Shown here: one piece after another, positions 5,101 through 60,529 of the stretch
How positions within the stretch are numbered: the first letter of the stretch is position 1
Layout of the letters: every line of letters begins with the position of its first letter
NCBI GenBank assembly: GCA_973895155.1
Contig: OZ316897.1
Location: 23,411,455-23,475,454 of the forward strand
DNA from: Marsupella aquatica
Lineage: Eukaryota > Plantae > Marchantiophyta
Length of the DNA stretch: 64,000 nucleotides
Reading direction: 5' to 3'
Position numbers and translations under genes: made by a program
The notes under the pieces: generated by a model
The model's database searches: none
What the model saw: the letters and a program-made list of their open reading frames with translations, nothing else
Told to the model about the DNA's origin: nothing

Positions 5101-6752
5101 AGATGGAGTCTGTCATCATTGCAGAGCTCGACAAGGAGCTAAGAGCAACCCAGGAGGAGAGGGCTACCTTGAAGAAGGAATTGGAGGAAGCCCACAGGGA
5201 GCAGGAGGAGGCCAAAAACGAGCTGGAGGGGGCACGTAAGGACCTGGATGAAACCCAAGAGGAGTTGGAGGAAATCACGAGGAAGATGGAGAACCTACAG
5301 CGGCGGGCCGACAACCAAACAGAGCGGCTGAAGAAACAAGCCGCAGTATTTAAATGCTTAGCTGCAGCAGGTCCATCTCCCGTTGGGACAAACCAGTTAC
5401 CAGGGGTGGTAATTGCCGAAGGACAAGCCGCGCCACCTGCACCAGTGCCGGAAGTAAGTGGGAAGGGGAAGGGACCAGCTGCCGAGCCACCAACGAAGAA
5501 GAAGCGGAAACCTTCAGGGTCAAGGAGTAATACGACTTCACAGGCCGTGGTGATCAAGGAGCTAGACCCAGCACCGACCCCAGACAGGGTCACGGCTAGG
5601 GATCCAACTACCCTAGGGGAAGGGGAGGCCGAAGCCGAGGGAGTGGCTGAGGCCGAAGCCGTGGGTATTGCCGAGGCCGGTGTCGAGGCTGAAGCCGAAG
5701 GTGGACCCAGTCAGGCCGATGGAGAGTTGACTCAGTCAAGGGCAGGTAATCTGTCAGAGAATGAACCTACGGCAGTGGCTGAGGAGGAAGCATTGGGGGC
5801 ATCCATTAAGGATCCACCACCGGTGTCGTGACGGTGCAAGGGCGCCGTTCCTTTTAGGGAGGGCGGACGTGGAGGGAGGAGGCGTGAGTGGGCAGGGCGG
5901 GCGCGGATCTCCACGTTTAGGATTAGGATCAGAACCAGGAGCGGCCCTGACACTTAGCTTAGTGGGATTGCGGTCCCACTGGTAGGAGCAACACTTGTGC
6001 TCCTGCCTTGCTGTACATAGGTAGATTCGGGCAAGTAGATTACTGTTAAGTAGATTAGGCTTACGATGCAAAGAATGGCGGATCCACTACCAGGATAAGT
6101 ACCTGGGCAGCGGGGAGCTCAGGGCCTCTTCTTTAGCAAGTTTTTAGTTTGCACCAGCCGGGCTGGGATCAAGTAGTACGAGAAGCTCTCGGTTAGTCAT
6201 ACAGTGACCCTTGTGTATATTCATGTTTCCTCATGCCTAAGAGCTGAATAGAGTTGGCCTCACGGCTTAGTTCACAGAACTTGTGTATGAGATGTACTGT
6301 TTGTATGGCAAGTGCATGGTATGACTCAGTCAGAATGAGTCATTTTGCTATTTGTGTGTCACATTAACTTGTGTGAAGAGTGCCCACATCAACAGAAGGA
6401 AGGAAAGTAAGCAGGGGAGTGAGAGTTGGATGTGTCGAGCTGAGAGAGGTCTTAGCGGCTTAACCAAGCCTATTGGGGATCATTCCGGCGGCGGAATCCA
6501 AACATACCTAACAAGACGGAGGGGAAGACAGGGGAAGACAGGGGAAGGCCTATATTAGGCCGGCTACGTATCTCATGACCCGATGAAGGATCTGTCCAGT
6601 ATATGTGTGTAAAATGTTAATAGTAGTAGTAGAAGGTTAGCAGCGTCCCATGCCGCTAAGCCGCGGAAACGGCCTCGCCAAGCACGAAACCTGCGGGAAT
6701 CGGCTTGAGCTGGGGGGTTTCTTGGGTTTAGGGAGCCATGGGACGCACCACA
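2117..6752 (+). repeat. 3' LTR of A1 (4636 bp, TG...CA), contains a long ORF
   Basis: Homologous end to end with 7594-12338 and 54880-59599. Termini are fixed by the CTGTC TSD of A3. Confidence 0.85.
2232..5831 (+). CDS. Intact LTR-embedded protein (1199 aa; likelier start ATG 2490, 1113 aa): transposon accessory-type N-terminal domain, low-complexity linker, long coiled coil, acidic tail
   Basis: Uninterrupted ORF conserved in three copies. Motif GLEAFVRLPW..EF..LTPKVIAEVFGLP..NGF..C is shared with the B and D extra ORFs. E/K/L/Q-rich heptad region. TATAAA at 2211. Confidence 0.85.
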   Translation: MEPGQRPEVRLRVKTRLGLGRVKRRRLGRINGKKDRQRRGVRSACRRWWLICEHELGRRLWEANYCQLLRQALGERIDTDDRPKEGMSNVNQAAHFWGCLFERATEYIKTYEDEESERAARERQELARLWELQKTAFLGGELIKDEFLWTPTSNQLDDLLFCKDSVVGIREAIKNCNDIHWELKGSTERWTQATVLGETSTAAEMKRKGAVNDEATPAKRTRSAAPKRPAEQQSRRQGEAEEEEVDPIKAIPTRDDTWKGWAATLPVEVQLHFAREEDACFTAMQTKKYQGFMAGSGLEAFVRLPWLKPEVPESDLLEFMGSWEPETNCTRIYGKDFYLTPKVIAEVFGLPIGNKTKVDTRKTLPDKEFRSFPGPSTKNGFFRNTCTNPHIGEMIDFLRVTMHCNLPRAEIGKAQVYLAERPDPSRDYNGYLLNQLKKILKEEQQVIGMGSVSRLGYHMPLLCRYARGQTFAPVLPLQVRAPEEAPTPRPLAEKPQPPVSPTIEQVFRPRKEDLPMQQPGMQSLLKLLEKEKKSASATTTATATMQDTTTEVGLHRLTRENPFAGDKERIRPESKPGVRMYVGTSSSKSEAELPEAPTDEEEREKPDVQEVEEAVEDCSHDNSGYGSDHHVPGVRTCGRFVPTLPRVVRGDPNQQSSPESPPPDVAPPSFDGIKQTVQEFQERIKQEEEAALAKEKDLPGGDWPEDIRRLAEKGSKPLATIEEIRRTAWEQRPRWAMPITSTYSTYAKNRAMEYGEMCGELALGIFGEELEVGPFFHREQLEKHQLEEAVALERSKKDEVIRRLRRMEAEIEDLRAAKKAQDELRIKRHELNIMQGQLDTAQADNQNIKDKLTQTQEELADTIKEREKWKQELKNTEEAHITANSRAMAETQRKEWALKGELEKIRGALEQKEVELGKSYQGIMALQQELASLTASFKADLREKDEMLEQTYAKMNQMESVIIAELDKELRATQEERATLKKELEEAHREQEEAKNELEGARKDLDETQEELEEITRKMENLQRRADNQTERLKKQAAVFKCLAAAGPSPVGTNQLPGVVIAEGQAAPPAPVPEVSGKGKGPAAEPPTKKKRKPSGSRSNTTSQAVVIKELDPAPTPDRVTARDPTTLGEGEAEAEGVAEAEAVGIAEAGVEAEAEGGPSQADGELTQSRAGNLSENEPTAVAEEEALGASIKDPPPVS

Positions 6753-7593: not shown

Positions 7594-10500
7594 TATGGTG
7601 CGTCCCATAGCTCCCCAAACCCAAGAAACCCCCCCGCACAAGCCGATTCCCGCAGGTTTCGTGCTCGGCGAGGCCGTTTCCGCGGCTTAGCGGCATGGGA
7701 CGCTGCTAACTTCCTTCTACTACTACTATTAACATTTTACACACATATACTGGACAGATCCTTCATCGGGTCATGAGATACGCAGTCGGCCTAATCTAGG
7801 CCTTCTCTTGTCTTTCCCTCCTGTTGGTTAGGTATATTTGGATTCCGCCGCGGGAATGATCCCCAATTGGTTTGGTTAAGCCGCTAAGACCTCTCTCAGC
7901 TCGACACATCCAACTCTCACTCCCTTGCTTACTTCCCTTCTACTTGTTGATGTGGGCACTCTTCACACAAGTTAATGCGACACACAAATAGCAAAATGAC
8001 TCCTTCTGACTGAGTTATACCATGCACTTGCAATACAAACAGTACATCTCATACACAAGCTCTGCGAACTAAGCCGCGAGGCCAACTCTATTCAGTTCTT
8101 AGGTATGAGGAAACATGAATATACACAAGGGTCACTGTATAACTAACCGAGAGCTTCTCTTACTACTTGATCCCAGCCCTGCTGGTGCAACTAAAAACTT
8201 GCTAAAGAAGAGGCCCTGAACTCCCCGCAGCCCAGGTACTTATCCTGGTTGTGGATCAGCCTGATTCCTTGTAGCGTAAGCCTAATCTACCTACTGTAAT
8301 CTACCTAACTATCTACCTATGTACAACAAGGCAGGAGCACAAGTGTTGTCCTCACCCGTGGATCCGAAATCCCACTAATCTAAGTGTCAGGGCCATCTCC
8401 TGGTCCTGATCCTAAGTCTAAACTTGGAGATCAGCGCCCGCCCTGCCCACTCATGCCTCCTACCTCCACGTCCGCCCTCCCTAAAAGGGACGGCGCCCTT
8501 GCACCGTCACGACACTGGTGGCTGGTCCTCAATGGACGCCCCCAATGCTTCCTCCGCAACCACTGCCGTTGGTCCGTCTTCTGACAAATTACCTGCCCCT
8601 GACCGAGTCAACTCTTCATCGGCCTGACTGGGTCCACCCTTGGCTTCGGCCTCAGCATCGGTCACGGCCTCCGCTACGGCTACGGCCTCTGATACGGCTA
8701 CGGCCTCCCCGGCATGTTCTAGTGGAGGATCCGGTACCTCGGCAACATTACTGGTTCTCCCGGCCTCGGCCTTGCCATCTCCTCTTCCTAGGACTGGTGG
8801 ATCCACCGCCGTGCTGATGCCGGAGGTTGGTGCCGGGTTTATCTTCTCGGTCACAACAGCTTGAGAAGCCGTATAACTCCCAGACCTAGAAGGTTTCCGC
8901 TTCTTCTTCTTCCCTATTTTGATAGTCGGTTCCTTCCCCTTGCCACTTACCTCCGGCACCGGGGTGAGTGTTTCGGCTTGTCCTTCAGCCAATACTACCC
9001 CTGGTAACTGGGTTCCCCCAATTGGAGTTGGACCTGATGAAGCCAAGCATTTTAATACTGCGGCTTGTGTCTTCAGCCGCTCTGTTTGGTTGTCGGCCCG
9101 CCGTTGTAGGTTCTCCATCTTCCTCGTGATTTCCTCCAACTCCTCTTGGGTCTCGTCCAGGTCCTTGCGCGCCTCCTCCAGCTCCTTATTGGCTTCCTCC
9201 AATTCTTTCTTTAAGGTAGCCCTCTCCTCCTGGGTTGCTCTTAGCTCCTTGTCGAGCTCTGTTACGACCACAGACTCCATCTTATTCATCTTGGCATAAG
9301 TCTGGTCGAGCTGGTCGTCCTTTTCACGCAGGTCGGCCTTGAAGCTGGCCGTTAGGGACGCAAGCTCCTGCTGCAGCGCAATAATTCCTTGATAGGATTT
9401 CCCTAACTCTGCTTCCTTCTACTCAAGGGCTCCACGGATATCTTTGAGCTCTCCTTTCAAAACCCTCTCCCTTCTTTGGTTCTCCACCATGGCCCGATTG
9501 TTGGTTGCTAAGTGAGCCTCCTCTGCATCCCTTAGCTCTCGCTTCCATTTCTCTCTTTCCTTGACTACGTCGGCCAACTCTCCTTGGGTCCGAGTCAGTT
9601 TATCTTTGATAATCTGATTGTCAGACTAAGCGGTATCCAACTGCCCCTGCATGATGTTTAGCTCATGCCGCTTAATTCGCAGCTCATCTTGGACTTTCTT
9701 GGCCACCTGCAGGACTTCCACCTTGGCTTCCTTCTCCCTAAGCCGTCGGATGACCTCGTCCTTCTTGCTTCTCTCCAAAGCCACTGCTTCTTCTAATCGG
9801 TGCTTTTCCGACATCTCCCTCTGGAAAAAGGGTCCCTGTTCCAACTCCTCCCCAAAGATGTTGAGCGCCAAGTCCCCACACATCTCCCCGTACTCCATGG
9901 CTCTATCCTTAGCATAGGTGGAGTAACTAGAAGTCATCGGCATCAACCACCGCGGCCTCTGCTCCCAAGCCGCCTTGCGGATTTCTTCTACGATGGCAAG
10001 AGGGTTGCTTCTTTTTTTGGCAAGCCGCCTGATGTCCTTCGGCCAATCTCCTCCTGGTAAATCCTTCTCCCTAGCCAGGGCTGCTTTCTCTTCCTCCCTA
10101 AGTCGCTCCTGAAATTCTTGTGCCGTCTGCTTTATGTCGTCAAAGCTCGGGGGAGCAACCTCTGGTGGGGAGACTTGGGGCTACTCTGCTGGGTGGGGTC
10201 CCCTCGAACTACTCTTGGAAGCGTGGGGATAAATTGGCCACAGGTCCTTACTCTTGGAACATGATGATCCGACCCATAGCCGGAGTTATCATTGTTGGAG
10301 TCCTCCACCGCCTCCTCCACTACTTGGACTCCCGACTTCTCCCTTTGTTCCCCTGGTCCAGTCGTGAAAATGGCCTTACGGATCACGGGCTCTGGTTCCT
10401 CTGGTTTCCAGGCTGTCGTCTCCCTCTGCTCTCCGCGGGAAGGAGTCTTAGGCTGCTCTGCCTCTGATTCGGGGCTTGAGGCTCCCACATACATTCGCAC

Positions 10501-12338
10501 TCCCAGCTTGTGTTCTGGCCTCCTTCTCTCCTTGGCTCCGGTAAAGGGGTCTTCCCTTCTGAGTCGGCTTAGGCCGACCTCTGGGGCAACGTCTTGTATC
10601 GTTGCCGTTGCCGGAACCGGAACCGTTTCCTTCTCCAGCAATTTCAGCAGATTTTGCATGCCTGGTTGCTGCATCGGCAAGTCTTCTTTCCTTGTCCGAA
10701 ACACCTGCTCGATCATTGGACTGTCGGGCTGGTTGGGCTTCTCTGGTGCTGGCCCCTGCTCTGGAACCTCCTCCGGTGCCCTTGCCAATAGGGGAAGTAC
10801 TGGGGCAAAGATTTGACTTCTGGCATACCGGCACAACAGCGGCATGTGATAGCCAAGCCGGGACACGCTTCCCATGCCGATCACCTGCTGTTCCTCCTTC
10901 AAGATCTTCTTCAGTTGGTTGAGGAGGTACCTGTTGTAATCCCGGCTTGGGTCTGGCCTTTCTGCCAGGTAGACCTGAGCCTTGCCGATCTCTGCCCTCA
11001 GCAAGTTACAATGCATGGTCACCCGCAAGAAATCGATCATCTCTTCGATGTGTGGGTTGGTGCAGGTGTTCCGGAAGAAGCCATTCTTCGTTGATGGTCC
11101 TGGGAACGACCGGAACTCCTTGTCAGGTAAGGTCTTCCTGGTATCAACCTTGGTCTTATTACCCATCGGCAAGCCAAACACCTCAGCAATCACTCGGGGA
11201 GTGAGATAGAAATCCTTCCCATACACCCTCGTGGAATTGGTCTCGGGTTCCCATGATCCCACGAATTCTAATAAGTTTGAGTTCGGCACCTCCGGCTTCG
11301 GCCATGGTAATCTTACGAAGGCTTCCAAGCCGGATCCGGCCATGAAGCCTTGGTACTTCTTGGTCTGCATGGCCGTAAAGCATGCATCCTCCTCCCGTGC
11401 AAAGTGTAATTGCACTTCCTCCGGTAGGGTCGCCGCCCAGCCTTTCCGGGTGTCATTGTTTGTTGGAATGGCATTGATGGGATCGACCTCTTCCTCTTCG
11501 GCTTCTCCCCTTGTCCTGCTCTGCTGCTCTGCTGGCTTCCTAGGTGCCGCTGACCTGGTCCTTTTTGCCGGGGTGGCCTCTTCGTTGTTGTTTCCTTTCC
11601 TCTTCATCTCGGCTGCCATGGATGTTTCTCCTAGCAAGGTTGCCTTCGTCCACCCCTTCGTGTTACCCTTCAACTCCCAGTGTAGGTCGTTGCAGCGATT
11701 GATGGCTTCCCGGATGCCGACGATTCTGTTTTTGCAAAACAGAAGGTCGTCGAGCTGATTGGCAGTAGGAGTCCACAAGAACTCGGCCTTGATAAGTTCT
11801 CCTCCTAAGAAAGCCGTCTTCTGCAGTTCCCAGAGCCGAGCGAGCTCCTGCCGTTCTTGAGCTGCTCTCTCCAATTCTTCATCCTCGTAAGTCCTGACGT
11901 ACTCACCTGCCCGTTCGAACAAGCATCCCCAAAAATGTGCCGCTTGATTGACGTTGCTCATACCCTCCTTGAGTCGATCGTTGGTATCTGTTCCCACCCC
12001 GAGTGCTTGCCTAAGCAGCTGACAGCATTTGGCCTCCCGTAGTTGTCTGCCCAGTTTGTTCTTGCAAATGAGCCACTATTCCTCGCGAGCGGTCCTTACC
12101 CCTCTCCTCCTCTGGTCTTCCCTCCCGTTGGTCACCCCTAGCCGCCGACGCTTAGCGCGCCCTAACCCTAATCGTGTTCTCTCCCCCGGCATCCTTACTT
12201 CCAGCCTCGGCCCGGGTTCCATAGTCACCCTTAATTGTTTATATTTTCCTTGTTTTTGTTCCTATACTAAGGTGTTTCCAGGGTACACTCTTGCTTTACC
12301 ATGTAAACCGGGATAGTGATTCCTGGCTAGGCATCAAC
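7594..12338 (-). repeat. 3' LTR of A2 (~4.75 kb, mutated termini)
   Basis: Reverse complement of the A1 LTR, with the PPT adjacent at 12339-12355. Confidence 0.85.
8507..12222 (-). pseudogene. Disrupted LTR-embedded coiled-coil protein gene of A2
   Basis: ORF pieces 10132-11997, 9626-9946 and 8507-9289 are homologous to the 1199-aa ORF. Confidence 0.85.
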
Positions 12339-17000: not shown

Positions 17001-17603
17001 TGTCGTGCGCATACACATCGCTACACAACATACATTGCTTGTCACATACATCCAAACATAGTCACACTGCCACATCACAAACACAAGAGAATGGAATACA
17101 AGTGGAACTCATGTCCACACATGTCCAAAACCCACAATAATCTCCATACAATCGGCACAATGATCCCGGTCAACAATACCCCATCGATCCCGCACCGATC
17201 CGATCACACACGTATGTCAAGCCAACGCACCTTGCACTACTCAAGGAATCCACGTTACACAAGCGGAGCTCACAGCCACCATAGCCACTCAAGCTCCTCT
17301 CTCTCCAAGGCTCAACATTGAAAGATGACCTTTCAATGCCTCACAAGTGAGAAGTACCCTCTCACACAAACCTGACGGAACCTTATCGGCTCATATAGCA
17401 CACATACCAAATATACGGATCTAGATAGTACGATACACTCTAACACTACCTAGAATGGCGTGACAGCTATCGTGCGCATACACATCGCTACACAACATAC
17501 ATCGCTTGTCACATACATCCAAACATAGTCACACTGCCACATCACAAACACAAGAGAATGGAATACAAGTGGAACTCATGTCCACACATGTCCAAAACCC
17601 ACA
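17001..17603 (-). repeat. 3' terminal repeat region of C with internal 138-bp direct repeat (17001-17138 and 17468-17605)
   Basis: The duplication is directly visible. A PPT-like TAGGGGGGCGAT lies on the minus strand at 17604-17615. TG..CA ends are present. Confidence 0.7.
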
Positions 17604-17778
17604 ATCGCCCCCCTAGCTGGGAGTAAGGTCCCCTAACTCTAGCTAGCCATGAGTTCTACAAGGTTGATATACACCTTTTTAGGTGTGAAGATCAGGAGGC
17701 CGGGTGCAAGTGAGCCCCATCGATCACCTACCTGCAATCCATATCTGCCAAGAGAACACAAATGATAACTAGTCGGCT

Positions 17779-19359
17779 TCACCGACACTGAGGACACAAC
17801 CATGATCCACTAGGAATCACCTGCAATGGTGGTGTCAAACATGACATATGCCATCCTCTAGAACACTTATCACAAATCAACATAGTAGCTGCTCCCTGAG
17901 CAGATCCACACAACATACATTTCAAGCTAGCACGAACATGTGCCAAGCTTGGATCTACTGTACCATCAATGTTGGGAAGGTGACATGGTGCACAGTTGCG
18001 CACATGATCCTTCCAAACCATACCATCGCGTCCCTCCAACATCAGGACACCAGAAGGCAACACTTCACGCACACGAAAGATTGTCCGGCCTACGGTCACA
18101 TCAAGTGTTGTGGGTGCTGTCTGCTGCAAATAAACATAATCACCAGGATGAAATCGTCGAATGCTTGCACGGTAACCTCCTCCACGAATAGTGGCATACC
18201 TCAAAGTATCATGATGTTGGGCAATGGCAAAGTTATCAAAAGCCACGGGCATCACTCTCTGAAATACCCGTGCTCTCTCTGAACACACCTTGACCCAAAC
18301 ATCAGGATCATCCAAGTTCACAACTGGTATAGCATCACGACGAATAGCTGCTGGCAAATCTGGCTCTCTACCATAGAGCAAAAAGTAAGGTGAGAAGGAT
18401 GCAAGTGATGCTTGCCGACTGAAACGGTAGCCCATAGCTAACCAAGGTAGCTGGAGATCCCAATCTCCCAGATGACCAACCTGCAAGCCATACTTACGCA
18501 ATCCTCTCTTCACAGTTTGCACAACTCTCTCAGCTATTCCATCTGCCTCAGAATGATCACAAGAGGTAGTACGATGATCAATCAAAGCTTGTTCACACAA
18601 ACTCTCAAACTCTCCATGGAACTCAGTTCCCTGATCAGTCAACACCTCAGCTGGTGCTCCAAAATGACTAAGTACGCGATCCAAAAATGTAGCAGCAACT
18701 CCTCCACTGGCTTTATCTGGCAACGCCACTAGCTCAATCCACTTGGAGAAGTGCTCCACCATGACCAAAACATACCGATTATGGCGTTGGGTAAGAGGTA
18801 ATGGACCAGCAAAATCCAAACTCCAACGATATCCCAAACCCATGATCGGTAACGGGTGCAACTGGGGAGTGGGAGCATTAAATGATGCTCTCACTCTATC
18901 GCATACCACACACTTAGCTATCAACTGCTGGACATGAGTATGCATATCACGCCACCAATATTGTGTCTGCAGCAAGCTATAAGTGCGCTTCACACCAAAG
19001 TGACCCAACTCCTCGTGTGCATGTCGCACCAAATGTACTCGTTGTGATGGTTTTGGTACCACCAACACCCTACCATCATGCAATACTCTCAAAAGATGGT
19101 TTCCCTCCCATCGAAACCTCTTGGCTCTTTGTAGAACCCTGTCACGTTCTTTGGCATCAACACTACCAACAATAGAACCACTGCACAGATATTCCAACAC
19201 TCTCACATCATTGTGAATATCTTGCTGTCCAGAAGTTACCTCACCAACATCCACATCTGAAGACTCATCATCCACTCCATCCAATGAGGTAGAGTCCACA
19301 GATCCACTGTATGCTGGCACCCAACAAAGAAAGGCAGATGCATGCCATCCTGGCACCAT
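17779..19359 (-). CDS. Integrase of element C with C-terminal PHD finger
   Basis: HHCC (HAHEELGH..CVVC), DDE core (SLDFAG, LTDQGTEF, AERVV) and C4HC3 finger CMLC..CDKCSRGWHMSC..WLCPQC (17782-17922). Confidence 0.9.
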   Translation of the reverse strand: MVPGWHASAFLCWVPAYSGSVDSTSLDGVDDESSDVDVGEVTSGQQDIHNDVRVLEYLCSGSIVGSVDAKERDRVLQRAKRFRWEGNHLLRVLHDGRVLVVPKPSQRVHLVRHAHEELGHFGVKRTYSLLQTQYWWRDMHTHVQQLIAKCVVCDRVRASFNAPTPQLHPLPIMGLGYRWSLDFAGPLPLTQRHNRYVLVMVEHFSKWIELVALPDKASGGVAATFLDRVLSHFGAPAEVLTDQGTEFHGEFESLCEQALIDHRTTSCDHSEADGIAERVVQTVKRGLRKYGLQVGHLGDWDLQLPWLAMGYRFSRQASLASFSPYFLLYGREPDLPAAIRRDAIPVVNLDDPDVWVKVCSERARVFQRVMPVAFDNFAIAQHHDTLRYATIRGGGYRASIRRFHPGDYVYLQQTAPTTLDVTVGRTIFRVREVLPSGVLMLEGRDGMVWKDHVRNCAPCHLPNIDGTVDPSLAHVRASLKCMLCGSAQGAATMLICDKCSRGWHMSCLTPPLQVIPSGSWLCPQCR

Positions 19360-19401
19360 CTCCTTATCTGACTCATCATGCCATCTGGCTCCAATCTCAT
19401 C

Positions 19402-19747
19402 CTACTGACTGGTACATGGATTGCGGCTTAATCCATCTGCATCCAAGTTCACTTTTCCAAGCCTATGCACCACCTGGAAATCATACTCCTGTAACAACAA
19501 TGCCCATCGTGCAAGCTTCCCTATAAGCTTGTCAGACTCCATTAACCACTTAAGAGGCTGATGATCAGTGATCAAGGTGAAGGGGTTACCAAACAAGTAG
19601 CAACAAAAGTGTGCAACAGCCCACACTGCTGCCAAACACTCTCCCTCATAAGAGCTATACTTAGCCTCTGCTGAATTGTTTGATCTACTGGCATAAGCCA
19701 CAACAAACTCATTCCCCTTATCATCCTTCTGAATCAACATTGCTCCA
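19402..19747 (-). pseudogene. RNase H (C-terminal part) of element C
   Basis: VAYASRS, YEGECLAAVWAV, LITDHQPL, NLDADGLSR. Confidence 0.88.
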
Positions 19748-20106
19748 TGTGACGCCGCCGGTACGGCGGTTAAATGAGTGATTCAGTCTAACTGCGCTCG
19801 GCACGCGCGTTAGGTGGGTCTTAGGCCGCTATTATTAGCATAACGACAGTATTTAGGTAATCATTAGGGGTAGGACATCATTAGGCAATAAGGGGGACTT
19901 TAGGTTCGGGCTGGCGGCGGGTCGCTATTCGCACACCCGGGTTATGAGCATGGAGGGGCCCCTCCCTCGGGTCCGTATAACGAACTTAAGGAAGCGGCCA
20001 CTGACGCACGCTGACTCAGACCGGCGGAGTGGCCGGTACACCACAAGCGTGAGCGGTTCAACCTATGGGCGTCGAGGAGACGTCGGGGATCGACAAGCCC
20101 TCAAAG

Positions 20107-20113
20107 TATAAAA
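20107..20113 (+). promoter_or_regulatory. Candidate TATA box in the B LTR (copy at 30167-30173)
   Basis: TATAAAA about 100 bp upstream of the LTR ORF ATG, followed by a CT-rich leader. Confidence 0.5.
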
Positions 20114-20214
20114 GGGGAGCCAACCCTTTGTAGTGCACCAGTCCATCAGTCCGCGCGCCAGCTTCGACCCCAGCTCTCTCGTTCTCTCTAGGTCGCCACT
20201 ACTATCTCCTCTGA

Positions 20215-22845
20215 ATGTCGCACACGATCCTCTCCAGCTCGGCCATTCGATTCTGGACGTAGTTCCTATCTACTGGAAGGCACTTGGCCGATTCATTGAA
20301 ACACGCCAACCCACGCCGATACGAGATCGAACGTGAATACGAGAGAGCCATCCGCCTAGCAGGACGACACCACTACGTCCTTAACTTTGACTACCCGTCT
20401 CAGAGCGAGCTTTACCGACCAGCTGAGGTATCTGGGTACTTCTTTGACGGAGACAAATATATCGGGTTCTGGGAAGCATTGCTTCGGCTTCCGGACGAGG
20501 TCTTCAATATCCCGGGTACAATCGACCTGCAGCGACATCACTTCGACCACATCCCTGCCCAGGTTCGGGCAGTCATTAACGGCGAGTCCAGTACCAACCG
20601 TTCGACAAGGGCGTCCGCACTCGCTTCGGAGAACTTCTACCAGCACCTACAGAGCTTCATGGGAACTCGGCCATCAACCAACATGACCAACTCAGCCGTA
20701 CCCGTACCCGTGCCCATGCAACCGCAGCTTCAGCTTCAGCCTCAGCCACAGCCTAGCCAAACCCCACCACCTATCACCTAGCCAGCACAGGTACGCTCCG
20801 TCATCAACGCTGTGGATCTTAGCGATGACGACGAGGCTACCCCACCCTTGACCAGGCGGCCCAGAGGAACAAGCGCTCGGGGGGCCGACACTATATCGTC
20901 CCCACCCCCTGCTCTGACCCCAGGAGCGGCCCCAGCAGACAACATGGTGACCGTGGCCGCCCCGGGCCCGTTACCAACCGCAGTGGCACTCCCCAGGCCC
21001 GATCGGGAGGATGGGGAAGTATCACCTTCCCCGAGTCAGTCACGGGGAAAGAAGAGGAAGGAATCCGCCAGTGCATTCGGGTTACCGTTGGCCACGGTAG
21101 CCGTAGCCAAGGTAACGATGCATCGCATGGGGGAAAACGTTCACAGCAACATCCTCCATCCCAAGCATGTGGTGTACCTGAAGACTCAGGGATTTGAGCA
21201 CCTCGCCTCTCTCCCCTGGAACACTTGCAGGTACTACGGGGAGGACATGACAGAATTCGTCAAGAATTATGACGACGTACGTCAACAGACTCGGCTGCGG
21301 GGAAGGAATATGTCCCTCACAGAAGAACGGCTCAAGATGATCTTCGGGTTACCCGAAGGTGACCATCGAGTCGAATCACGGGCTCCCGGGGGCAAGGGGG
21401 CCAAGTACCAATCTTCAAGTTTTCCCTCAGAGGGATCAGTAGACAACGGGTTCGTGATGAGGACCTGCCTCATGCCCGAGATAGCTGAGCGGTTGGAGTT
21501 CCAGAGGTACGCTCTCCACATGATGGAACCCCGGGGGGAGATCTCCGCCGCCCAGGTCATCCAGGTCGAGAACTATCGACCTAGGAAGTGGGCGTCGTAC
21601 TTCGCTAAGAAATTCCATGAAGAGATGGAGCGGCGAAGGAAGACGCTGTACATTGGCGGGAAGGCGTATTTCGCTAGCCACATCGAAATCATTCTTGAGT
21701 GGTACGCCCGGTTTGATCGACGAACCCTTCCCCGCATCAACGTTACAAAGCTGGTCCCAGCTAGGTGGGTTTTTCCGGCATTGGAGAGACGGCCCCAACC
21801 CGAGGCCCGAAGTCCACTGGACACGCCAGCTTCACCCACTCCACCTCCACAAATAGCTGTAATCATAACCGAGGAGGCGCCGGAGGGGTCGGTCGTCGCA
21901 ACCGTTGATGCGACCCAACTAGCCGGGCTAAGTACAGAAGTTGGTACGGCAGAGGTCTTACCCGAACCTGGGTCTCCCAAGGACCCGCCGGTGGCAATTC
22001 CGGAGAACCGGACATCGCTGCAGGAGGATACTCCGGCCCCTTCCAACGTTATGTCCCCAGGGCTGGACGTCACTGCCCCGGCCCCTGCGCGTGTTGATGT
22101 CTGCCCGTGCCCAAATCCGGACAGGCACAACTTGGACCACCCGGAACTCTTCGTACAGGGTACGTTTCTGAACGGGCTTCTGGGAGATTTCTCTCATCAA
22201 ATTGCCCAGGATACCGGGGAGTTCATGGCTCGGAAGGTAGCCTGTTTCTTCAATCAGGAGTTGGTTGCCGCCGTAAAGGCAGGGCGGGCCTAGTCGGAGG
22301 CCCTTCAGAGGATAGAGCGGTACCGGGTGGAGTCCGTGTACCTAAAGAACGAAGTGGCAGCTCAAGAGGCTGAACTTCTGCAACTACGACCCAAGGTTGC
22401 AGCCGCCGATGAGTTGTTAGCAAAGGCGTACGCTCTTACCGCCCTAGCCGAACAGGCCAAAGCTGGGAACGAGGCCGAGATTACACGACTCCGGAACCAG
22501 ATTGATAGTTTGAAGAAACAAGCTGTCACCTGGCAGAAAGACCTGGAGGAGGCCGAGGAGCGAGCCCAGCGAGACGCGACGGAGATAGCCACGCTGCAGG
22601 CCGAGATGGCGCGGCTCCAAACCGAGGCCGAGAAGCAGGACCAGCTGGCGAGTAAACTAGCGAGCGACGCCCAGCAGCTGGAGGAGGCATGTCAGGAGGC
22701 AGCAGAGGAGACGGACGCGGCGAGGCGAGAGAACGAATCTCTGCTGGACCAGGTCCAGCTCCTCAAAGCGGACAATGACAGGCTTCGAAGGCAGCGGGAT
22801 GGCCGTTCCCATTCGGGTGGCTCTGGCAAGCGTGCCAGGCATTAG
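20215..22845 (+). pseudogene. LTR-embedded protein of B, 5' LTR copy (876 codons, three CAG>TAG stops)
   Basis: Single frame. TAG at 20260, 20779 and 22291 are CAG in the 3' LTR copy. GFEHLASLPW..EFVKNY..IFGLPEG motif and C-terminal coiled coil. Confidence 0.85.
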
Positions 22846-23757
22846 CGGCGGAGTAGGAATAGATTAGGATTAGGATTGGCTTAGTCAGGCTCTTGGGACA
22901 GGCACCTGCCTTAGGTACGGCAGCGCTGCCCTGCTGTCCAGCCTGCGTAGATTAGGATCTTCTAATAAGACACAACCGTTTTCCGGCCTGACTGTCAGCT
23001 TAGTTAGGACCTTGGTCAGCGAATCTTCGGCGGGAGGATACCCCGTTCCTCGGCTCTTAGTATTTAGTGCACCCCTCGGTAGAGGCAGGGGGGGGTTTTT
23101 AGTTTCAGAGTCGGACATCCGCGGGACATGCGGGGAGTCCCGACCTCTGGGAATGACAAAGTACCAAGGGGAGGGGGTAGGACTAAGCTTGCCGGGCGAG
23201 TGCGGAGCCGGGCTCCGTTGTAGTGTGCACCCTTGGTCTTGAACCTGTGCATTCCAGGGCTGTCGTGTCAACTAAGTGTACGCATATGTTCCCTTTGTAG
23301 TAAAAATCCTTTCCCATCATTTTTCCTTCGTGTAAATCGAGATTGTATGCATGTGTGCGCATATGTGTGTGGGTTTCTCGTATATGGGTGGCAGCGCCGG
23401 GCCGAACGCACTACCCGAGACGTGCACAGGGTGCAGCCTGCGGGTAAGTGGTTGCGAGCACGGGTTGAGGACCTGTATCATCGAATCCGGATCGAAGGCG
23501 GACAGCACGAAGGCTTAGAAGCCCTTAAGCCGGGGTCGATCCTGCTATCGACTAGGGTACGTTCCGGCGGCGGAACACAAACCATACCTAGGAGGTGTCC
23601 GTATTTAGCAGTATGCGCACTTAGCGCTAGTTTACGAGAATAAGGTGCATTACGTGCTTCCCTTCCTGCCCGAACCCTCAGATTTACGAGGGATGTGCCC
23701 GTCTAAGCTGAAGTCTGAGTTAAGGCCGAAGCCTACGACGTGACATAGCCTTTGTTT

Positions 23758-28600: not shown

Positions 28601-29837
28601 CATGATACAGGGTCACCTACATAAGGAAGGTATTAACGGAAAGTTACGACGCTGCTTAGAGTATAAGGAGACACTTATCGTGATACGGGCCCTGCATGAA
28701 GAAGAAGCTGGAGGCCATTTTGCGGCAGTTACGACAGCCCGAAAGATTCTGGACTCGGGGTATTGGTGGCCTACATTGCATCGGGATGTACAGCGCTTCA
28801 TTAAGGGCTGTGACTTATGTCAGCGAGCGGGGGCCCCGAGGCGGGCTCATCATCACCCGCTCACATCTGTGCTTCCATTGGCACCATTCGAAAAATGGGG
28901 AATTGATTATATCGGACCGTTCACTCCCGTTACCCGAAGGCGAAGGTGCAGGTACATCCTATTAGCTATTGATTACTCCACCAAATGGGTCGAAGCGCGG
29001 GCTACGGTAAAGGACGATGCCGCAACCAGTGCCAGATTCTTATACGAACAGATTTTCACCCGATTCGGACCGCCCTTAGAATTGGTAAGCGACCGTGGAA
29101 CCCACTTCCTCAATGACACCGTAGCCCAGCTTACGGAGCGTTACCTAGTCAAGCACCGCAAGACTACCCCATATCATCCTAAAGCCAACGGGATGGCGGA
29201 GAGAGCAAATGGTATCATTGGGAAGATCCTCAACAAAACTGTAGCTGCGCACAAAACGGATTGGGATGATAAGTTGTACGCGGCGGTGTACTCGTATAAT
29301 CTAGCTTACAAAACTACTACGAGTCATAGCCCGTACTTTCTGGTGTTCGGCCAACATTCGTTGGTGCCCGTCGAATTTGAAGTGCACACTCCACGGGTCA
29401 GCATTCGGGATCGCTTACCTGAATCTGAAAGTCTGTCAGACCGAGCTTATCAGATTGAAGCCTTGGAAGAAGCACGGCTACTGGCAGCTCGACACACCGT
29501 GAAGAAACAGGCAACTTTGAAGAAGCAGCACGACAAAGGACTACGGAGGGTCGACGTCGTGGCAGGCGATCTAGTCCTTCTGTACGATAGTAGGTACATG
29601 CAGTTTCCAGGGAAGCTGCATACCCGGTGGTTGGGGCCCTTCCTTGTCAATCAGATCTACCGAAACGGATCTTTGGAGCTTGCGACGTATGCCGGCGATT
29701 TACTCCCCACGCGAATCAGCTACGATCGTGTAAAAAAGTACCACCATCAAGATGACGACGCCAATAGCGATGTTCGCGAGGACGCTTCACAATTAAGCAG
29801 GGAGCTATGTGACGCCGCCGGTACGGCGGTTAAATGA
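25678..29837 (+). pseudogene. pol: pol of B (PR-RT-RH-INT), in frame with gag; TGA at 27877 and frameshifting deletion near 28400
   Basis: LVDGGAG protease, FIDD RT, YVDVSG RH, WGIDYIGP/SDRGTHF INT. The frame runs into the 3' LTR. Confidence 0.92.
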
Positions 29838-32800
29838 GTGATTCAGTCTAACTGCGCTCGGCACGCGCGTTAGGTGGGTCTTAGGCCGCTATTATTAGCA
29901 TAACGACAGTATTTAGGTAATCATTAGGGGTAGGACATCATTAGGCAATAAGGGGGACTTCAGGTTCGGGCTGGCGGCGGGTCGCTATTCGCACACCCGG
30001 GTTATGAGCATGGAGGGGCCCCTCCCTCGGGTCCGTATAACGAACTTAAGGAAGCGGCCACTGACGCACGCTGACTCAGACCGGCGGAGTGGCCGATACA
30101 CCACAAGCGTGAGCGGTTCAACCTATGGGCGTCGAGGAGACGTCGGGGATCGACAAGCCCTCAAAGTATAAAAGGGGAGCCAACCCTTTGTAGTGCACCA
30201 GTCCATCAGTCCGCGCGCCAGCTTCGACCCCAGCTCTCTCGTTCTCTCTAGGTCGCCACTACTATCTCCTCTGAATGTCGCACACGATCCTCTCCAGCTC
30301 GGCCATTCGATTCTGGACGCAGTTCCTATCTACCGGAAGGCACTTGGCCGATTCATTGAAACACGCCAACCCGCGCCGATACGAGATCGAACGCGAATAC
30401 GAGAGAGCCATCCGCCTAGCAGGACGACACCACTACGTCCTTAACTTTGACTACCCGTCTCAGAGCGAGCTTTACCGACCAGCTGAGGTATCTGGGTACT
30501 TCTTTGACGGAGACAAATATATCGGGTTTTGGGAAGCATTGCTTCGGCTTCCGGACGAGGTCTTCAATATCCCGGGTACAATCGACCTGCAGCGACATCA
30601 CTTCGACCACATCCCTGCCCAGGTTCGGGCAGTCATTAACGGCGAGTCCAGTACCAACCGTTCGACAAGGGCGTCCGCACTCGCTTCGGAGAACTTCTAC
30701 CAGCACCTACAGAGCTTCATGGGAACTCGGCCATCAACCAACATGACCAACTCAGCCGTACCCGTACCCGTACCCGTGCCCATGCAACCGCAGCTTCAGC
30801 TTCAGCCTCAGCCACAGCCTAGCCAAACCCCGCCACCTATCACCCAGCCAGCACAAGTACGCTCCGTCATCAACGCTGTGGATCTTAGCGATGACGACGA
30901 GGCTACCCCACCCTTGACCAGGCGGCCCAGAGGAACAAGCGCTCGGGGGGCCGACACTATATCGTCCCCACCCCCTGCTCTGACCCCAGGAGCGGCCCCA
31001 GCAGACAACATGGTGACCGTGGCCGCCCCGGGCCCGTTACCAACCGCAGTGGCACTCCCCAGGCCCAATCGGGAGGATGGGGAAGTATCACCTTCCCCGA
31101 GTCAGTCACGGGGAAAGAAGAGGAAGGAATCCGCCAGTGCATTCGGGTTACCGTTGGCCACGGTAGCCGTAGCCAAGGTAACGATGCATCGCATGGGGGA
31201 AAACGTTCACAGCAACATCCTCCATCCCAAGCATGCGGTGTACCTGAAGACTCAGGGATTTGAGCACCTCGCCTCTCTCCCCTGGAACACTTGCAGGTAC
31301 TACGGGGAGGACATGACAGAATTCGTCAAGAATTATGACGACGTACGTCAACAGACTCGGCTGCGGGGAAGGAATATGTCCCTCACAGAAGAACGGCTCA
31401 AGATGATCTTCGGGTTACCCGAAGGTGACCATCGAGTCGAATCACGGGCTCCCGGGGGCAAGGGGGCCAAGTACCAATCTTCAAGTTTTCCCTCAGAGGG
31501 ATCAGTAGACAACGGGTTCGTGATGAGGACCAGCCTCATGCCCGAGATAGCTGAGCGGCTGGAGTTCCAGAGGTACGCTCTCCACATGATGGAACCCCGG
31601 GGGGAGATCTCCGCCGCCCAGGTCATCCAGGTCGAGAACTATCGACCTAGGAAGTGGGCGTCGTACTTCGCTAAGAAATTCCATGAAGAGATGGAGCGGC
31701 GAAGGAAGACGCTGTACATTGGCGGGAAGGCGTATTTCGCTAGCCACATCGAAATCATTCTTGAGTGGTACGCCCGGTTTGATCGACGAACCCTTCCCCG
31801 CATCAACGTTACAAAGCTGGTCCCAGCTAGGTGGGTTTTTCCGGCATTGGAGAGACGGCCCCAACCCGAGGCCCGAAGTCCAGTGGACACGCCAGCTTCA
31901 CCCACTCCACCTCCACAAATAGTTGTTATCGTAACCGAGGAGGCGCCGGAGGGGTCGGTCGTCGCAACCGTTGATGCGACCCAACTAGCCGGGCTAAGTA
32001 CAGAAGTTGGTATGGCAGAGGTCTTACCCGAACCTGGGTCTCCCAAGGACCCGCCGGTGGCAATTCCGGAGAACCGGACATCGCTGCAGGAGGATACTCC
32101 GGCCCCTTCCAACGTTATGTCCCCAGGGCTGGACGTCACTGCCCCGGCCCCTGCGCGTGTTGATGTCTGCCCGTGCCCAAATCCGGACAGGCACAACTTG
32201 GACCACCCGAAACTCTTCGTACAGGGTACGTTTCTGAACGGGCTTCTGGGAGATTTCTCTCATCAAATTGCCCGGGATACCGGGGAGTTCATGGCTCGGA
32301 AGGTAGCCTGTTTCTTCAATCAGGAGTTGGTTGCCACCGTAAAGGCAGGGCGGGCCCAGTCGAAGGCCCTTCAGAGGATAGAGCGGTACCGGGTGGAGTC
32401 CGTGTACCTAAAGAACGAAGTGGCGGCTCAAGAGGCTGAACTTCTGCAACTACGACCCAAGGTTGCAGCCGCCGATGAGTTGTTAGCAAAGGCGTACGCT
32501 CTTACCGCCCTAGCCGAACAGGCCAAAGCTGGGAACGAGGCCGAGATTACACGACTCCGGAACCAGATTGACAGTTTGAAGAAACAAGCTGTCACCTGGC
32601 AGAAAGACCTGGAGGAGGCCGAGGAGCGAGCCCAGCGAGACGCGACGGAGATAGCCACGCTGTAGGCCGAGATGGCGCGGCTCCAAACCGAGGCCGAGAA
32701 GCAGGACCAGCTGGCGAGTAAATTGGCGAGCGACGCCCAGCAGCTGGAGGAGGCATATCAGGAGGCAGCAGAGGAGACGGACGCGGCGAGGCGAGAGAAC

Positions 32801-33810: not shown

Positions 33811-33982
33811 CTCCAAGTCCTACTCCACTCCAATCAGTGTGTAGCTGAAATGGTTTGCCTGAAATGGGTCTTCTCAAAATAGGGGATGATGCCAACCTTT
33901 GCTTCAACTCCTGAAAGGCATGCTCCTGGTCATCACCCCAAATCCATTCCTGATCCAACTTAGTGAGTATGGTCAAAGGTTT
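33811..33982 (-). pseudogene. RT connection / RNase H start of element C between insertions B and D1
   Basis: LTKLDQEWIWGDDQEHAFQELKQRLASSPIL..PFQLHTDWS. Confidence 0.88.
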
Positions 33983-35372: not shown

Positions 35373-35378
35373 TCTTTT

Positions 35379-35396
35379 TGGCGCCGCTGCCGGGGA
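35379..35396 (+). other. PBS of D1, tRNA-Asp type
   Basis: TGGCGCCGCTGCCGGGGA, one mismatch to the Athila-type TGGCGCCGTTGCCGGGGA. Confidence 0.85.
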
Positions 35397-38547: not shown

Positions 38548-38694
38548 TGTTATGAATACACAAGATGATAGTAGTCAATAATCCCCACTCACTTCCATTA
38601 TGCCAAGGACTTATATAGTCCAGAAGGGTTAACATGGTTGGGTTAATGTTAACCTATCCTATACTAGGGTTAAGTCATATTATGGGTTATAACA
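38548..38694 (-). repeat. 3' LTR of Copia E
   Basis: Identical by eye to 44194-44340. Confidence 0.95.
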
Positions 38695-44193: not shown

Positions 44194-44340
44194 TGTTATG
44201 AATACACAAGATGATAGTAGTCAATAATCCCCACTCACTTCCATTATGCCAAGGACTTATATAGTCCAGAAGGGTTAACATGGTTGGGTTAATGTTAACC
44301 TATCCTATACTAGGGTTAAGTCATATTATGGGTTATAACA
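44194..44340 (-). repeat. 5' LTR of Copia E
   Basis: TG...CA, with PBS adjacent. Confidence 0.95.
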
Positions 44341-44345
44341 AGATT

Positions 44346-48415: not shown

Positions 48416-48437
48416 AATTCCACCTGGGACAGGTTGC

Positions 48438-51372: not shown

Positions 51373-51384
51373 AGGACACCATTT

Positions 51385-53328: not shown

Positions 53329-54404
53329 GGTTTAGCAAGCTGGCTAAATCCTTTAACATACCTCCTGTAGTAGCTCGCCAATCCCAAGAATGCACGAACT
53401 CTACTCACATTAGCAGGACAAGGAATCTGTGTAATGGCCTCCACTTTAGTCTGCTGTACACCCAATCCCCCTGGGTATATAGTGTGGCCCAAATACTCAA
53501 TCTGGTCTTGGAAGAACTTACACTTGCTAGGATGGAGCTTCAACCCATGTGCTCTCAATCTCTCCAACACAATCTGCAAGTGCTGCTGATGTTCTTCCAC
53601 AGTAGAAGAATAGACCAAAATATCATCAATATAACATCTGATAAAATCCAAACCTGCAAGGATTCGATCCATGACTCTCTAGAACTCAGCTGGTGCATTC
53701 TTCAACCCAAATGGTAAGAATAACCACTGATACAAACAATCTTTGCCATAAGAATCAATCCCCCAGAATGCTGTCTTGGACTTGTCAGCATGCCTAATTG
53801 GAAGTTGATGGTACCCTGCCCTCAGATCCAATGAACTGAAAACCTTTGCATGCCCCACAGCATCAAAGATCTCCTCAGGTGTGGGCATGGCATATCTATT
53901 AGATTTTGTCTGGCAATTAATGGGTCTGTAATCACCGCACATGCGCCTATCTATGTAATTGCCATGCACATCCTTCTTGGCTGGCATCACTGTGGCAGAT
54001 GCATACTCCCCATATGAAATCTCCACCAATCCAGCCTCCAACAAATCTTGAGTTCTGTTTTGAATCAGAGCTCTCTCCATGTCACTATAACGGTATGGCC
54101 TACGAAAGATTGGCGCATCACGAGCCAATTTAATCTGAATACCAGGACCCTTTAATGTCCCCAAATCTTTCATGCTAAATGCAAAACAATTCCAGTAACT
54201 CTTCAGGAATCGACGCATGCGACGTCTCTCCTCCCCTGTCAACTTAGGGCCAAGCTGTGGTTCCCAACTCTCCACCAAATCCCTAGCTAATATCTCTTTG
54301 TAGGGTAGAAGAGATAGCCGATGATTGCTATTTAGCAGTAGATTGAGTAGTCCCTTCCTGCTCAACAATCTGTCCAGCCTTGGCCAATCCTGCCATAGGT
54401 CCAT
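53329..54404 (-). pseudogene. Reverse transcriptase of element C (one TAG at 53679)
   Basis: RMCGDYRPIN, LDLRAGYHQ, LPFGLKNAPAEF, CYIDDILV, FLGLASYYRRYV. Confidence 0.93.
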
Positions 54405-54879
54405 GGACTGTCTGCTCGCCCCCAGCTGTGGTCAGTACTGTCTCAGTGGACCGCAAGCTCACCAAGCGACAATCAGTAATTCTAGCAAAGCGCATCCGCA
54501 ACTGTTCAGCTACTCCCAAGCTGATAATCCAAGTCAAACAATTCAGGTCCATTGCTTGACCAAGAACCTGGCGTCGCAAACTCTCTGACATAGAGGCAAC
54601 TACAGTGGTGCCAGTCAAAAATCCCATAGCACGCTCTCTCTCATCAGCAGTAGGTTCCACTAATTGCTGGAGAACTGTGTTCCACACAAGTCCAGGGCCA
54701 CCTGCTCTAAATGCATATGAAGCAGAGTGGCTTACAAGAGTGGGTAATGCACAACGGGGGCACCCAACTACATTGACCATTGCTAATGGAGGTCTATCAG
54801 GTTGGGTCACACCCTATGCACGACGCCCTGGATCCAAAACATCATCCACCACTAAGGCTGGTGAGCGTGGAATGCTGTC
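54405..54879 (-). pseudogene. C5-cytosine DNA methyltransferase (DNMT3-like), target-recognition region and motifs IX-X, of element C
   Basis: ERERAMGFLTGTTVVASMSESLRRQVLGQAMDLNCL aligns without gaps to DNMT3A [36 protein letters not shown] (recalled sequence). Confidence 0.8.
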
Positions 54880-60362: not shown

Positions 60363-60529
60363 CTGTCAAATGCACGCTTCAGCATGCACCTCACATGGGA
60401 TCAAATTAGTCCACCACAAGCGTGGACGATGTGCACGAGAACTCACACGTGCAGCATCCAATAACACAGTAGGTCCAATCCAAGACCTCACCTGGTGAAC
60501 ACTACTGGCAACAATCCGACTACGATCAT
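60363..60529 (-). pseudogene. DNMT3-like methyltransferase motifs VII-VIII of element C
   Basis: PTVLLDAARVSSRAHRPRLWWTNL versus DNMT3A [22 protein letters not shown] (recalled sequence). Confidence 0.8.

What the first reader, a model, noticed from the sequence alone, without database searches (positions are those of the whole stretch)
17782..17922. Integrase of the methyltransferase-bearing element ends in a PHD finger instead of a chromodomain
Seen: a complete C4HC3 pattern (CMLC-CDKC-H-MSC-WLCPQC) terminates the integrase ORF. Knowledge: PHD fingers read histone H3 tails, host DNMT3 uses a PHD-like ADD domain to sense unmethylated H3K4, and I recall a PHD-bearing integrase in the Chlamydomonas REM1 element. 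Inference: one polyprotein would carry both a chromatin reader and a DNA-methylation writer, possibly coupling targeted integration to methylation.
Basis: partly seen in the sequence, partly recalled or inferred. Interest (0 to 1): 0.75.

Follow-up and report, generated by a model that had tools for sequence, protein, structure and literature searches.

The report
PHD-tipped, methylase-carrying Gypsy with leaky stop
A dead plant jumping gene ends its integrase in a genuine PHD zinc finger and carries a DNMT3-like DNA methylase, a pairing that is the rule in its relatives; in this branch a conserved stop codon, likely leaky, separates methylase from integrase, so the finger probably picks landing sites while the methylase probably marks the new DNA copy separately.

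Summary
Confirmed: a complete C4HC3 PHD (Pfam 41.7 bits) ends a DDE integrase. Integrase and methylase pieces belong to one Gypsy element, split by three nested insertions with perfect target duplications; RT, integrase and methylase trees agree. The PHD is the family norm (134 of 135 long-enough relatives in a PHD-blind search). The element works like KnitGypsy-Dnmt3 (de Mendoza 2018); PHD-bearing Gypsy polyproteins are published in Chlamydomonas, and this scan found the same pairing on two other genomes. The 'one polyprotein' reading needs correction: here gag-PR-methylase ends at an in-frame stop in TMV-type readthrough context (stop-CAR-YY; 22 of 29 loci, six lineages counting the window), so methylase is likely made in excess of RT-integrase-PHD. 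A second, green-algal arrangement puts the methylase next to the integrase. Element ends are split repeats (A-coding-B-A-B) with a conserved CA-NN-TG inner junction and 4-bp target duplications, pointing to integrase cutting a circle junction. The PHD resembles readers of unmodified H3 but lacks the K4-contact acid. No binding, readthrough or methylation was tested. The copy is dead.

The parts
17782..17922 (-). PHD finger (C4HC3), C-terminus of the integrase
   Evidence: PF00628 41.7 bits; pLDDT about 80 over residues 491-539
17779..19401 (-). Integrase ORF of this copy: HHCC zinc domain, DDE core, beta-rich C-terminal domain, flexible linker, PHD
   Evidence: best folds: foamy-virus and Ty3 integrases
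19402..19746 (-). RNase H, C-terminal part, in frame with the integrase; premature stop at 19404-19402 in this copy
   Evidence: intact relatives L001/L002 have one 1047-aa frame here
33811..33982 (-). RT connection and RNase H N-terminal part, between two nested insertions
53329..54321 (-). Linker and reverse transcriptase (RT core 54185-53478); one premature stop and a frame break in the linker in this copy
   Evidence: the RT stop is not shared by other copies and linker length is polymorphic
54322..54330 (-). Conserved ORF1 stop in TMV-type readthrough context, TAG CAA TCA
54331..54879 (-). C5 methyltransferase C-terminal part (target-recognition region, motifs IX and X) and ORF1 tail; one premature stop in this copy
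   Evidence: (family profile, 141 bits, iE 1.5e-44); no Pfam hit for the fragment alone
60363..60529 (-). C5 methyltransferase middle part with motif VIII (DAA..S.AHRPRLWWTN)
   Evidence: 36.6 bits, iE 8.5e-13
17605..17616 (-). Polypurine tract
   Evidence: same position in most covering loci
17468..17604 (-). Repeat B, first copy (137 nt)
17459..17474 (-). Inner B|A junction CACGATA-GC-TGTCACG (family form CACGACA-NN-TGTCAYG)
17138..17465 (-). Repeat A, 3' copy (the 5' copy is expected outside the window)
   Evidence: A recurs at the 5' end in L021, L026, L063, L077
17001..17137 (-). Repeat B, second copy; 3' end of the element (CACGACA), inserted in the gag-pol of another Gypsy element

Best explanation
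This is a dead, nested copy of a Gypsy-DNMT3-type retrotransposon whose integrase ends in a PHD finger that likely tethers the integration complex to unmodified histone H3 tails, while its DNMT3-like methylase, separated from RT-integrase-PHD by a likely leaky stop codon, probably methylates the element's own cDNA rather than the landing site. Shown: anatomy, one element, family-wide PHD, selection on PHD and methylase, the conserved stop and its context, split repeats, 4-bp target duplications. Inferred steps: (1) most ribosomes stop after gag-PR-methylase and a minority read through into RT-RH-IN-PHD, so particles hold far more methylase than integrase; (2) reverse transcription yields a molecule in which the B and A ends are joined (a circle); (3) integrase makes a staggered cut after CA on each strand of CA-NN-TG, giving normal processed ends and a 4-bp duplication; (4) the PHD binds H3 A1-R2 and, lacking a methyl-lysine cage, steers insertion away from H3K4me3 promoters; (5) the new copy arrives methylated.
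For: PHD in 136 of 150 best integrase relatives found without the PHD in the query, 134 of 135 among those with a long enough tail; 68 of 79 integrase-bearing proteins found with the methylase alone. Purifying selection: L001 vs L002 dN/dS 0.066/1.48 for PHD, 0.178/1.71 for the methylase C-part. PHD keeps the equivalents of KDM5B PHD1 L325, D328, P347, G349, W351 (A1 and R2 contacts; PMC4225485 passages) at identical spacing; Gly at the position two before the His in 150 of 160 family fingers. Methylase of L002: Pfam PF00145 51 bits, best solved structures DNMT3A/B/C, catalytic Cys motif in 132 of 146 domains. Stop: L002 is intact, 1369-aa gag-PR-methylase, TAG CAG TTA, 1047-aa RT-RH-IN-PHD in the same frame; stop-CAR-YY in frame 126-159 nt before RT in 22 of 29 loci; CARYYA follows only 4 of 1572 TAG in the window and 50 of 21727 in the loci; no other letter reaches 5% at 54319-54337 in 4 runs while neighbouring sites vary; synonymous sites between lineages are near saturation. 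CAR YYA is the TMV readthrough signal, 6-32% in plants (PMC2754532 passages). Ends: 3 of 3 loci with both ends show TG...CA and a 4-bp duplication; junction motif in 29 of 54 loci against 91 of 1080 shuffles.
Against: No binding, readthrough, methylation or circle was observed; everything mechanistic is inferred from sequence. The window clade has Ala at the equivalents of KDM5B D308 (K4) and E321 (T3), and 0 of 12 closest fingers have two acidic loop residues against 122 of 160 family-wide, so H3 binding may be weak or different. The K. nitens methylase did not methylate DNA in yeast (called inconclusive; PMC5890265 section 10). The largest group of loci has CAR-YYC/T, not the optimal CAR-YYA, and 7 of 29 loci lack the match (three with a changed context, one at the edge of my search stretch, two with none, one with TGA CGG at another place). 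The 22 hits are only about five independent lineages. ORF2 could instead come from a spliced or internal transcript. A methylase-bearing lineage without PHD exists (P0138, P0140, P0148), so the two are not obligately linked. L010 vs L014 show no excess of synonymous change in the PHD (decayed copies). The copy itself sits in another retrotransposon, which fits either targeting or selection.
Confidence: 0.55

Rival explanations
1. One reading: PHD and methylase act in one complex, the PHD playing the part of the DNMT3 ADD domain, so that the landing site and new copy are methylated where H3K4 is unmethylated.
For: Methylase and PHD sit in the same protein in 78 of 120 long relatives; in 71 of them the methylase directly precedes the integrase, so a methylase-integrase-PHD fusion could persist. 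The PHD class fits unmethylated H3K4. Single-frame type I proteins exist (P0013, P0014).
Against: In the window's lineage a conserved stop and the RT-RH block separate them. The methylase occupies two different positions while the PHD stays put. PHD-less methylase elements exist. The finger is not ADD-like.
Confidence: 0.2
2. The PHD serves another job (binding the methylase, Gag, DNA or a non-histone host protein) and no longer reads H3 in this land-plant branch.
For: Loss of the acidic K4 and T3 contacts and of the acidic loop in the 12 closest fingers, which are basic instead.
Against: The R2 Asp and the A1 pocket are kept in 12 of 12; best structural relatives by sequence are H3 readers.
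Confidence: 0.2
3. The stop after the methylase is a true end; RT-IN-PHD is made from a spliced or internally started RNA, and the split repeats are resolved without integrase cutting a circle.
For: Gene callers find Met starts shortly after the stop (P0003, P0005, P0006). No RNA run was available.
Against: ORF2 stays in frame with ORF1 and the six bases after the stop match CAR-YY across lineages whose linker peptides differ. The inner junction keeps exactly two bases between CA and TG from land-plant-type to algal loci.
Confidence: 0.2
4. Artefact: chance cysteine pattern, or a chimera of unrelated element pieces.
For: The pieces are spread over 43 kb and the copy is decayed.
Against: Pfam score, three target duplications, contiguous profile positions, congruent trees, intact relatives.
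Confidence: 0.01

Closest known systems
KnitGypsy-Dnmt3 of Klebsormidium nitens, 'Gypsy-DNMT3' of streptophytes (PMC5890265: abstract, passages, sections 10 and 11, supplement search; bioRxiv 10.64898/2026.05.21.726589: passages)
   Same: Gypsy RT-RH-integrase, DNMT3-like C5 methylase, DIRS-like split repeats.
   Different: There the methylase is said to lie in the Pol ORF; here a conserved in-frame stop closes gag-PR-methylase. 'PHD' does not occur in the text or in the three supplement files held, but Fig. 4c could not be seen and may show it. Readthrough, the CA-NN-TG junction, 4-bp duplications and the algal arrangement are not in the passages read.
Gypsy-7a_cRei and REM1 of Chlamydomonas reinhardtii (PMC9940879, PMC6673714, PMC8557442, PMC2774666: passages; the REM1 paper itself is not held)
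   Same: Green-lineage Gypsy with a PHD in the polyprotein; a targeting role was already suggested, with 2.6-fold excess of intergenic insertions for Gypsy-7a.
   Different: No methylase is listed for Gypsy-7a; REM1 has a truncated reverse-frame integrase with a chromodomain. Their relation to this family was not tested.
Chromoviruses and EpiLTRs (PMC6317226, bioRxiv 10.64898/2026.05.21.726589, bioRxiv 10.1101/2021.11.30.470311: passages)
   Same: Histone reader on the integrase tail; EpiLTRs already combine reader and DNA methylases.
   Different: They use a chromodomain and a DNMT4-related plus Dam methylase; this family uses PHD and a DNMT3-like enzyme.
TMV type I stop-codon readthrough (PMC2754532, PMC13517186: passages)
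   Same: UAG CAR YYA context ahead of an in-frame polymerase ORF.
   Different: Here it lies after protease and methylase in a retrotransposon, not between gag and protease; function untested.
Foamy-virus integrase cleavage of 2-LTR circle junctions (PMC1180852: abstract); PAT-type DIRS split repeats (PMC5890265 legend)
   Same: A palindromic end-to-end junction as integrase substrate; A-coding-B-A-B layout.
   Different: Here a copy of the junction is carried inside every integrated element, and the enzyme is a DDE integrase leaving 4-bp duplications, not a tyrosine recombinase.

Membership tests
PHD finger (PF00628) | C4HC3 ligands and score above the curated cut-off | tested here: met
   41.7 bits against 24
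Unmodified-H3 reader PHD (KDM5B PHD1 type) | A1 pocket (Leu, Pro, Gly, Trp) and Asp for R2 | tested here: met
   same spacing as L325, D328, P347, G349, W351
Unmodified-H3 reader PHD (KDM5B PHD1 type) | Acidic residue for K4 before the first Cys; acidic T3 contact | tested here: not met
   Ala at both; acidic in 2 of 12 closest fingers, 103 of 160 family-wide
Unmodified-H3 reader PHD (KDM5B PHD1 type) | Measured binding to H3K4me0 | not testable with these tools
   needs peptide assay
H3K4me3-reader PHD (ING/BPTF type) | Aromatic cage (positions recalled, not from a call) | tested here: not met
   Gly two before the His in 150 of 160; aromatic before the first Cys in 1 of 160
DNMT3/ATRX ADD domain | GATA-like finger plus atypical PHD (recalled) | tested here: not met
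   single canonical finger; no ADD among the 60 best solved matches listed of 78
Gypsy-DNMT3 (KnitGypsy-Dnmt3) | Gypsy order RT-RNase H-integrase | tested here: met
Gypsy-DNMT3 (KnitGypsy-Dnmt3) | DNMT3-related C5 methylase | tested here: met
   window fragments match the family profile; full domain of L002 hits DNMT3A/B/C first. The catalytic half of this copy is outside the window.
Gypsy-DNMT3 (KnitGypsy-Dnmt3) | Methylase in the same open frame as RT | tested here: not met
   same frame but closed by a conserved stop in this lineage; met in P0013, P0014
Gypsy-DNMT3 (KnitGypsy-Dnmt3) | DIRS-like split repeats A-coding-B-A-B | tested here: met
   B-A-B in the window; full layout in L021, L026, L063
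Gypsy-DNMT3 (KnitGypsy-Dnmt3) | Direct sequence kinship with the K. nitens element | not tested
   no sequence labelled as that element was in hand
Gypsy-DNMT3 (KnitGypsy-Dnmt3) | Methylase activity | not testable with these tools
   catalytic Cys motif in 132 of 146 family domains
Chromovirus | Chromodomain at the integrase C-terminus | tested here: not met
   no Chromo hit; one weak hit below cut-off, P0113, among the 26 proteins
Chromovirus | RT placement among chromovirus clades | not tested
   no named reference sequences; the trees had only three window elements as outgroup
DIRS/PAT | Tyrosine recombinase, no target duplication | tested here: not met
   DDE integrase; 4-bp duplications in 3 of 3
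TMV type I readthrough | Stop-CAR-YYA with the downstream ORF in frame | tested here: met
   window, L001, L002, L005, L054/L055 exact; the L008-type group CAR-YYC/T
TMV type I readthrough | Measured readthrough | not testable with these tools
   needs reporter or proteomics

The most novel reading that the evidence does not exclude
A green-lineage-wide Gypsy clade with its own replication logic: a leaky stop (land-plant branch) loads particles with DNMT3-like methylase at Gag level to pre-methylate the cDNA; a DDE integrase integrates from a circle by cutting a pre-encoded CA-NN-TG junction; and a PHD steers it to H3K4-unmethylated chromatin. In algae the methylase has moved next to integrase-PHD, giving a true reader-writer-integrase fusion.
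Probability: 0.3. Interest if true: 0.8.

Novelty: new variant of a known kind. Interest (0 to 1): 0.55.

Why it matters
The PHD alone is not news. What the anatomy adds is testable: why retrotransposons keep a cytosine methylase is an open question (PMC5890265, section 11), and a stop placed right behind it predicts high, particle-associated expression and cDNA self-methylation. The split repeats with a fixed two-base junction would make this a natural system in which a DDE integrase must use a joined-end substrate, a route long debated for retroviruses. The algal methylase-integrase-PHD form is the place to test real reader-writer coupling. The family appears abundant in some land-plant genomes (22 runs in 11 studies hold the stretch or part of it) yet PHD is not mentioned in the plant LTR classification text searched (PMC6317226).

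Tried and rejected
No whole genome is held, so copy number and insertion-site context in this host could not be counted. No RNA holder listed: no evidence on expression either way; only Logan contigs could be laid. Pfam does not see the methylase fragments alone; a family profile was needed. REM1 paper not held. Searches for print: retrotransposon + readthrough + CARYYA, 0 papers; PHD + integrase + Chlamyvir, 1 irrelevant; bryophyte Gypsy DNMT3, only PMC5890265; PHD finger + gypsy + integrase + split direct repeats, no listing that pointed to this family; stop codon suppression set, none on this family by title; Gypsy-DNMT3 names, 3 papers. Subscription journals, theses and Repbase are not covered, and bioRxiv supplements were not seen; PMC6453930 and PMC8226300 (passages) added nothing. 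The careful integrase tree did not finish; the quick tree is reported. CpG observed/expected is low in the host pieces (0.32-0.38 against 0.52-0.98 in four neighbours) but 0.50-0.75 in four relatives: not used as evidence. The loose junction scan hit too much by chance and was replaced. The bacterial promoter scan is irrelevant. No complex prediction was run. The earlier-findings search by sequence and the one on split repeats plus readthrough returned nothing. Whether the stop between RNase H and integrase is peculiar to this copy was not checked with reads.

Full report
1. Observation. The stated stretch, read on the minus strand, is a complete C4HC3 finger followed at once by a stop. Pfam gives PHD 41.7 bits, E 1.2e-10, behind H2C2 and rve domains, and no chromodomain. 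An AlphaFold model from 18 sequences (mean pLDDT 67.7, pTM 0.39, so domain packing is unreliable) shows zinc domain, catalytic core, a beta-rich C-terminal domain, a low-confidence linker and the finger; its best folds are foamy-virus and Ty3 integrases.

2. One element. The window is a pile of nested LTR retrotransposons of plant type (the host is unknown, a non-seed land plant is my inference). The host element lies on the minus strand in four pieces: 60529-60363, 54879-53329, 33982-33811 and 19746-17001. The three insertions between them begin TG, end CA and have perfect 5-bp duplications CTGTC, GGTTT and CTCCA. Family profiles continue across the breaks. In trees of RT (47 rows, careful), integrase (47 rows, quick) and methylase C-part (38 rows, 1 left out) the window groups with L010, L029 and L031, starred each time. 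The copy is dead: premature stops in methylase, RT and before the integrase, and a frame break in the linker. Other copies nearly all read another letter at the methylase and RT stops, and linker length varies among copies (24-100% of local contig depth in five runs). Its 5' half is outside the window.

3. The PHD is the family rule. With the PHD in the query, 117 of the 120 listed long relatives (of 185 found) have it. Without it, 136 of the 150 best representatives have it, 134 of 135 with a long enough tail. With the methylase alone as query, 79 of 101 hits have an integrase and 68 of those a PHD; of the 11 without, three form a real PHD-less branch and the other eight end early or look frameshifted. 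No chromodomain is among the precomputed domains. Two orders exist: PR-methylase-RT-RH-IN-PHD (window; 7 of 120 as single proteins, 38 more as RT-first ORFs whose upstream ORF is not shown) and RT-RH-methylase-IN-PHD (71 of 120; the named ones are chlorophytes), the latter one starred clade in the RT tree. PHD and methylase are under purifying selection between intact copies.

4. What the finger may read. Its best solved relatives are CHD4, ATXR5, KMT2D, DPF3, PHF12, KDM5B/5A PHD1, BHC80 and UHRF1 fingers; that most of these read unmodified H3 is recalled, and shown for KDM5B in PMC4225485 (passages). The A1 pocket and R2 Asp are kept; the K4 and T3 acids are Ala; there is no methyl-lysine cage. 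So the likely ligand is the free H3 N-terminus, with a weaker K4 read-out than in algal members. This is inference.

5. The stop. In L002, an intact relative, gag-PR-methylase (1369 aa) ends in TAG CAG TTA and RT-RH-IN-PHD (1047 aa) follows in frame. L001 and the window have TAG CAA TCA, L005 TAG CAA CCA, L054/L055 TAA CAA TCA, and a large group TAG CAA CCC. Of 29 loci that I picked for covering the RT start without an inner methylase, 22 have stop-CAR-YY in frame 126-159 nt before RT; with the window these are about six lineages. Background is 0.2-0.3% of TAG for CARYYA and 0.4-0.7% for CARYY. The stop and its context are invariant at the 5% level in 4 of 4 runs. Thirteen database proteins of 1330-1451 aa end about 70-130 residues after the methylase (P0122-P0133, P0136), as ORF1 products would. 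CAR YYA after UAG is the TMV readthrough signal. I infer readthrough; it was not measured. It would put the methylase at Gag level and RT-integrase-PHD at a fraction of it.

6. The ends. After the polypurine tract the window has B(137)-A(328)-B(137). Of 23 loci picked for having the junction motif, 13 show a second B, 4 a 5' A, and the 3 with both ends have TG...CA termini and 4-bp duplications AAGG, TCTC, AATC. The inner junction CACGACA-NN-TGTCAYG recurs in both domain orders (29 of 54 loci with up to 3 mismatches, shuffles 91 of 1080). A-coding-B-A-B is what results if a circle with two B-A repeats is opened inside one of them, and a cut after CA on both strands of CA-NN-TG gives the two-base 5' overhangs of processed retroviral ends (established integrase chemistry, recalled). 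Foamy-virus integrase is reported to cut such junctions (PMC1180852, abstract). This step is inference.

7. Comparison. It works like KnitGypsy-Dnmt3: Gypsy domains, DNMT3-like methylase, DIRS-like repeats (PMC5890265). It differs in the stop; kinship by sequence was not tested, so I file it as a variant of that kind rather than as a proven member. PHDs in Chlamydomonas Gypsy polyproteins, with a proposed targeting role, are in print (PMC9940879, PMC6673714), as are reader-plus-methylase elements with chromodomains (bioRxiv 10.64898/2026.05.21.726589). Two earlier agents of this scan reached the PHD-plus-methylase reading on other genomes; that is no independent support, and one gave the lead to the preprint. 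Readthrough, junction geometry and the algal order were not found in the searches, which do not cover figures, theses or subscription journals.

8. Verdict. Observation confirmed; interpretation partly supported. The PHD itself is ordinary for this family (about 0.3 alone). The conserved leaky-stop context and the junction raise the whole to 0.55.

Noticed in passing
window 19748-23746 and 29808-33810: A Gypsy element with 4-kb LTRs (98.9% alike) that each contain a roughly 800-aa ORF without Pfam match (30275-32665 intact).
   Followed up: partly
window 2178-5831, 8507-12075, 56097-59084: A second Gypsy family whose terminal repeat of about 4.6 kb holds a 1217-aa coiled-coil-rich ORF without Pfam match; three copies 84-88% alike, one internally deleted (54880-60362).
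   Followed up: partly
window 33983-53328: Very young Gypsy insertion (LTRs differ at 1 of 1388 bases) with an 881-aa extra ORF after pol (48727-51372, no Pfam match); it already holds a Copia element (38548-44340) with identical 147-nt LTRs and duplication AGATT.
   Followed up: partly
L042:210-218: A GC-rich relative has TGA CGG right after the methylase, the type II readthrough context: possibly a second, independent leaky stop (one locus only).
   Followed up: no
P0026-P0121 (algal-type proteins): Many carry 120-470 conserved residues after the PHD; P0105 has a weak Tudor-like hit there and P0113 SH3 plus a weak chromodomain hit.
   Followed up: no
P0142, P0198: Family polyproteins with a precomputed PF01585 domain (G-patch, name recalled) besides methylase and PHD.
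   Followed up: no
P0035, P0094: Algal-type members whose methylase is degenerate (catalytic motif missing in P0035) while integrase and PHD are intact.
   Followed up: no
L021:10690-10700, L026:10835-10865, window 17131-17150: The A-to-B joint near the 3' end differs between copies, with extra bases in L026, as expected of a joined-end product.
   Followed up: partly
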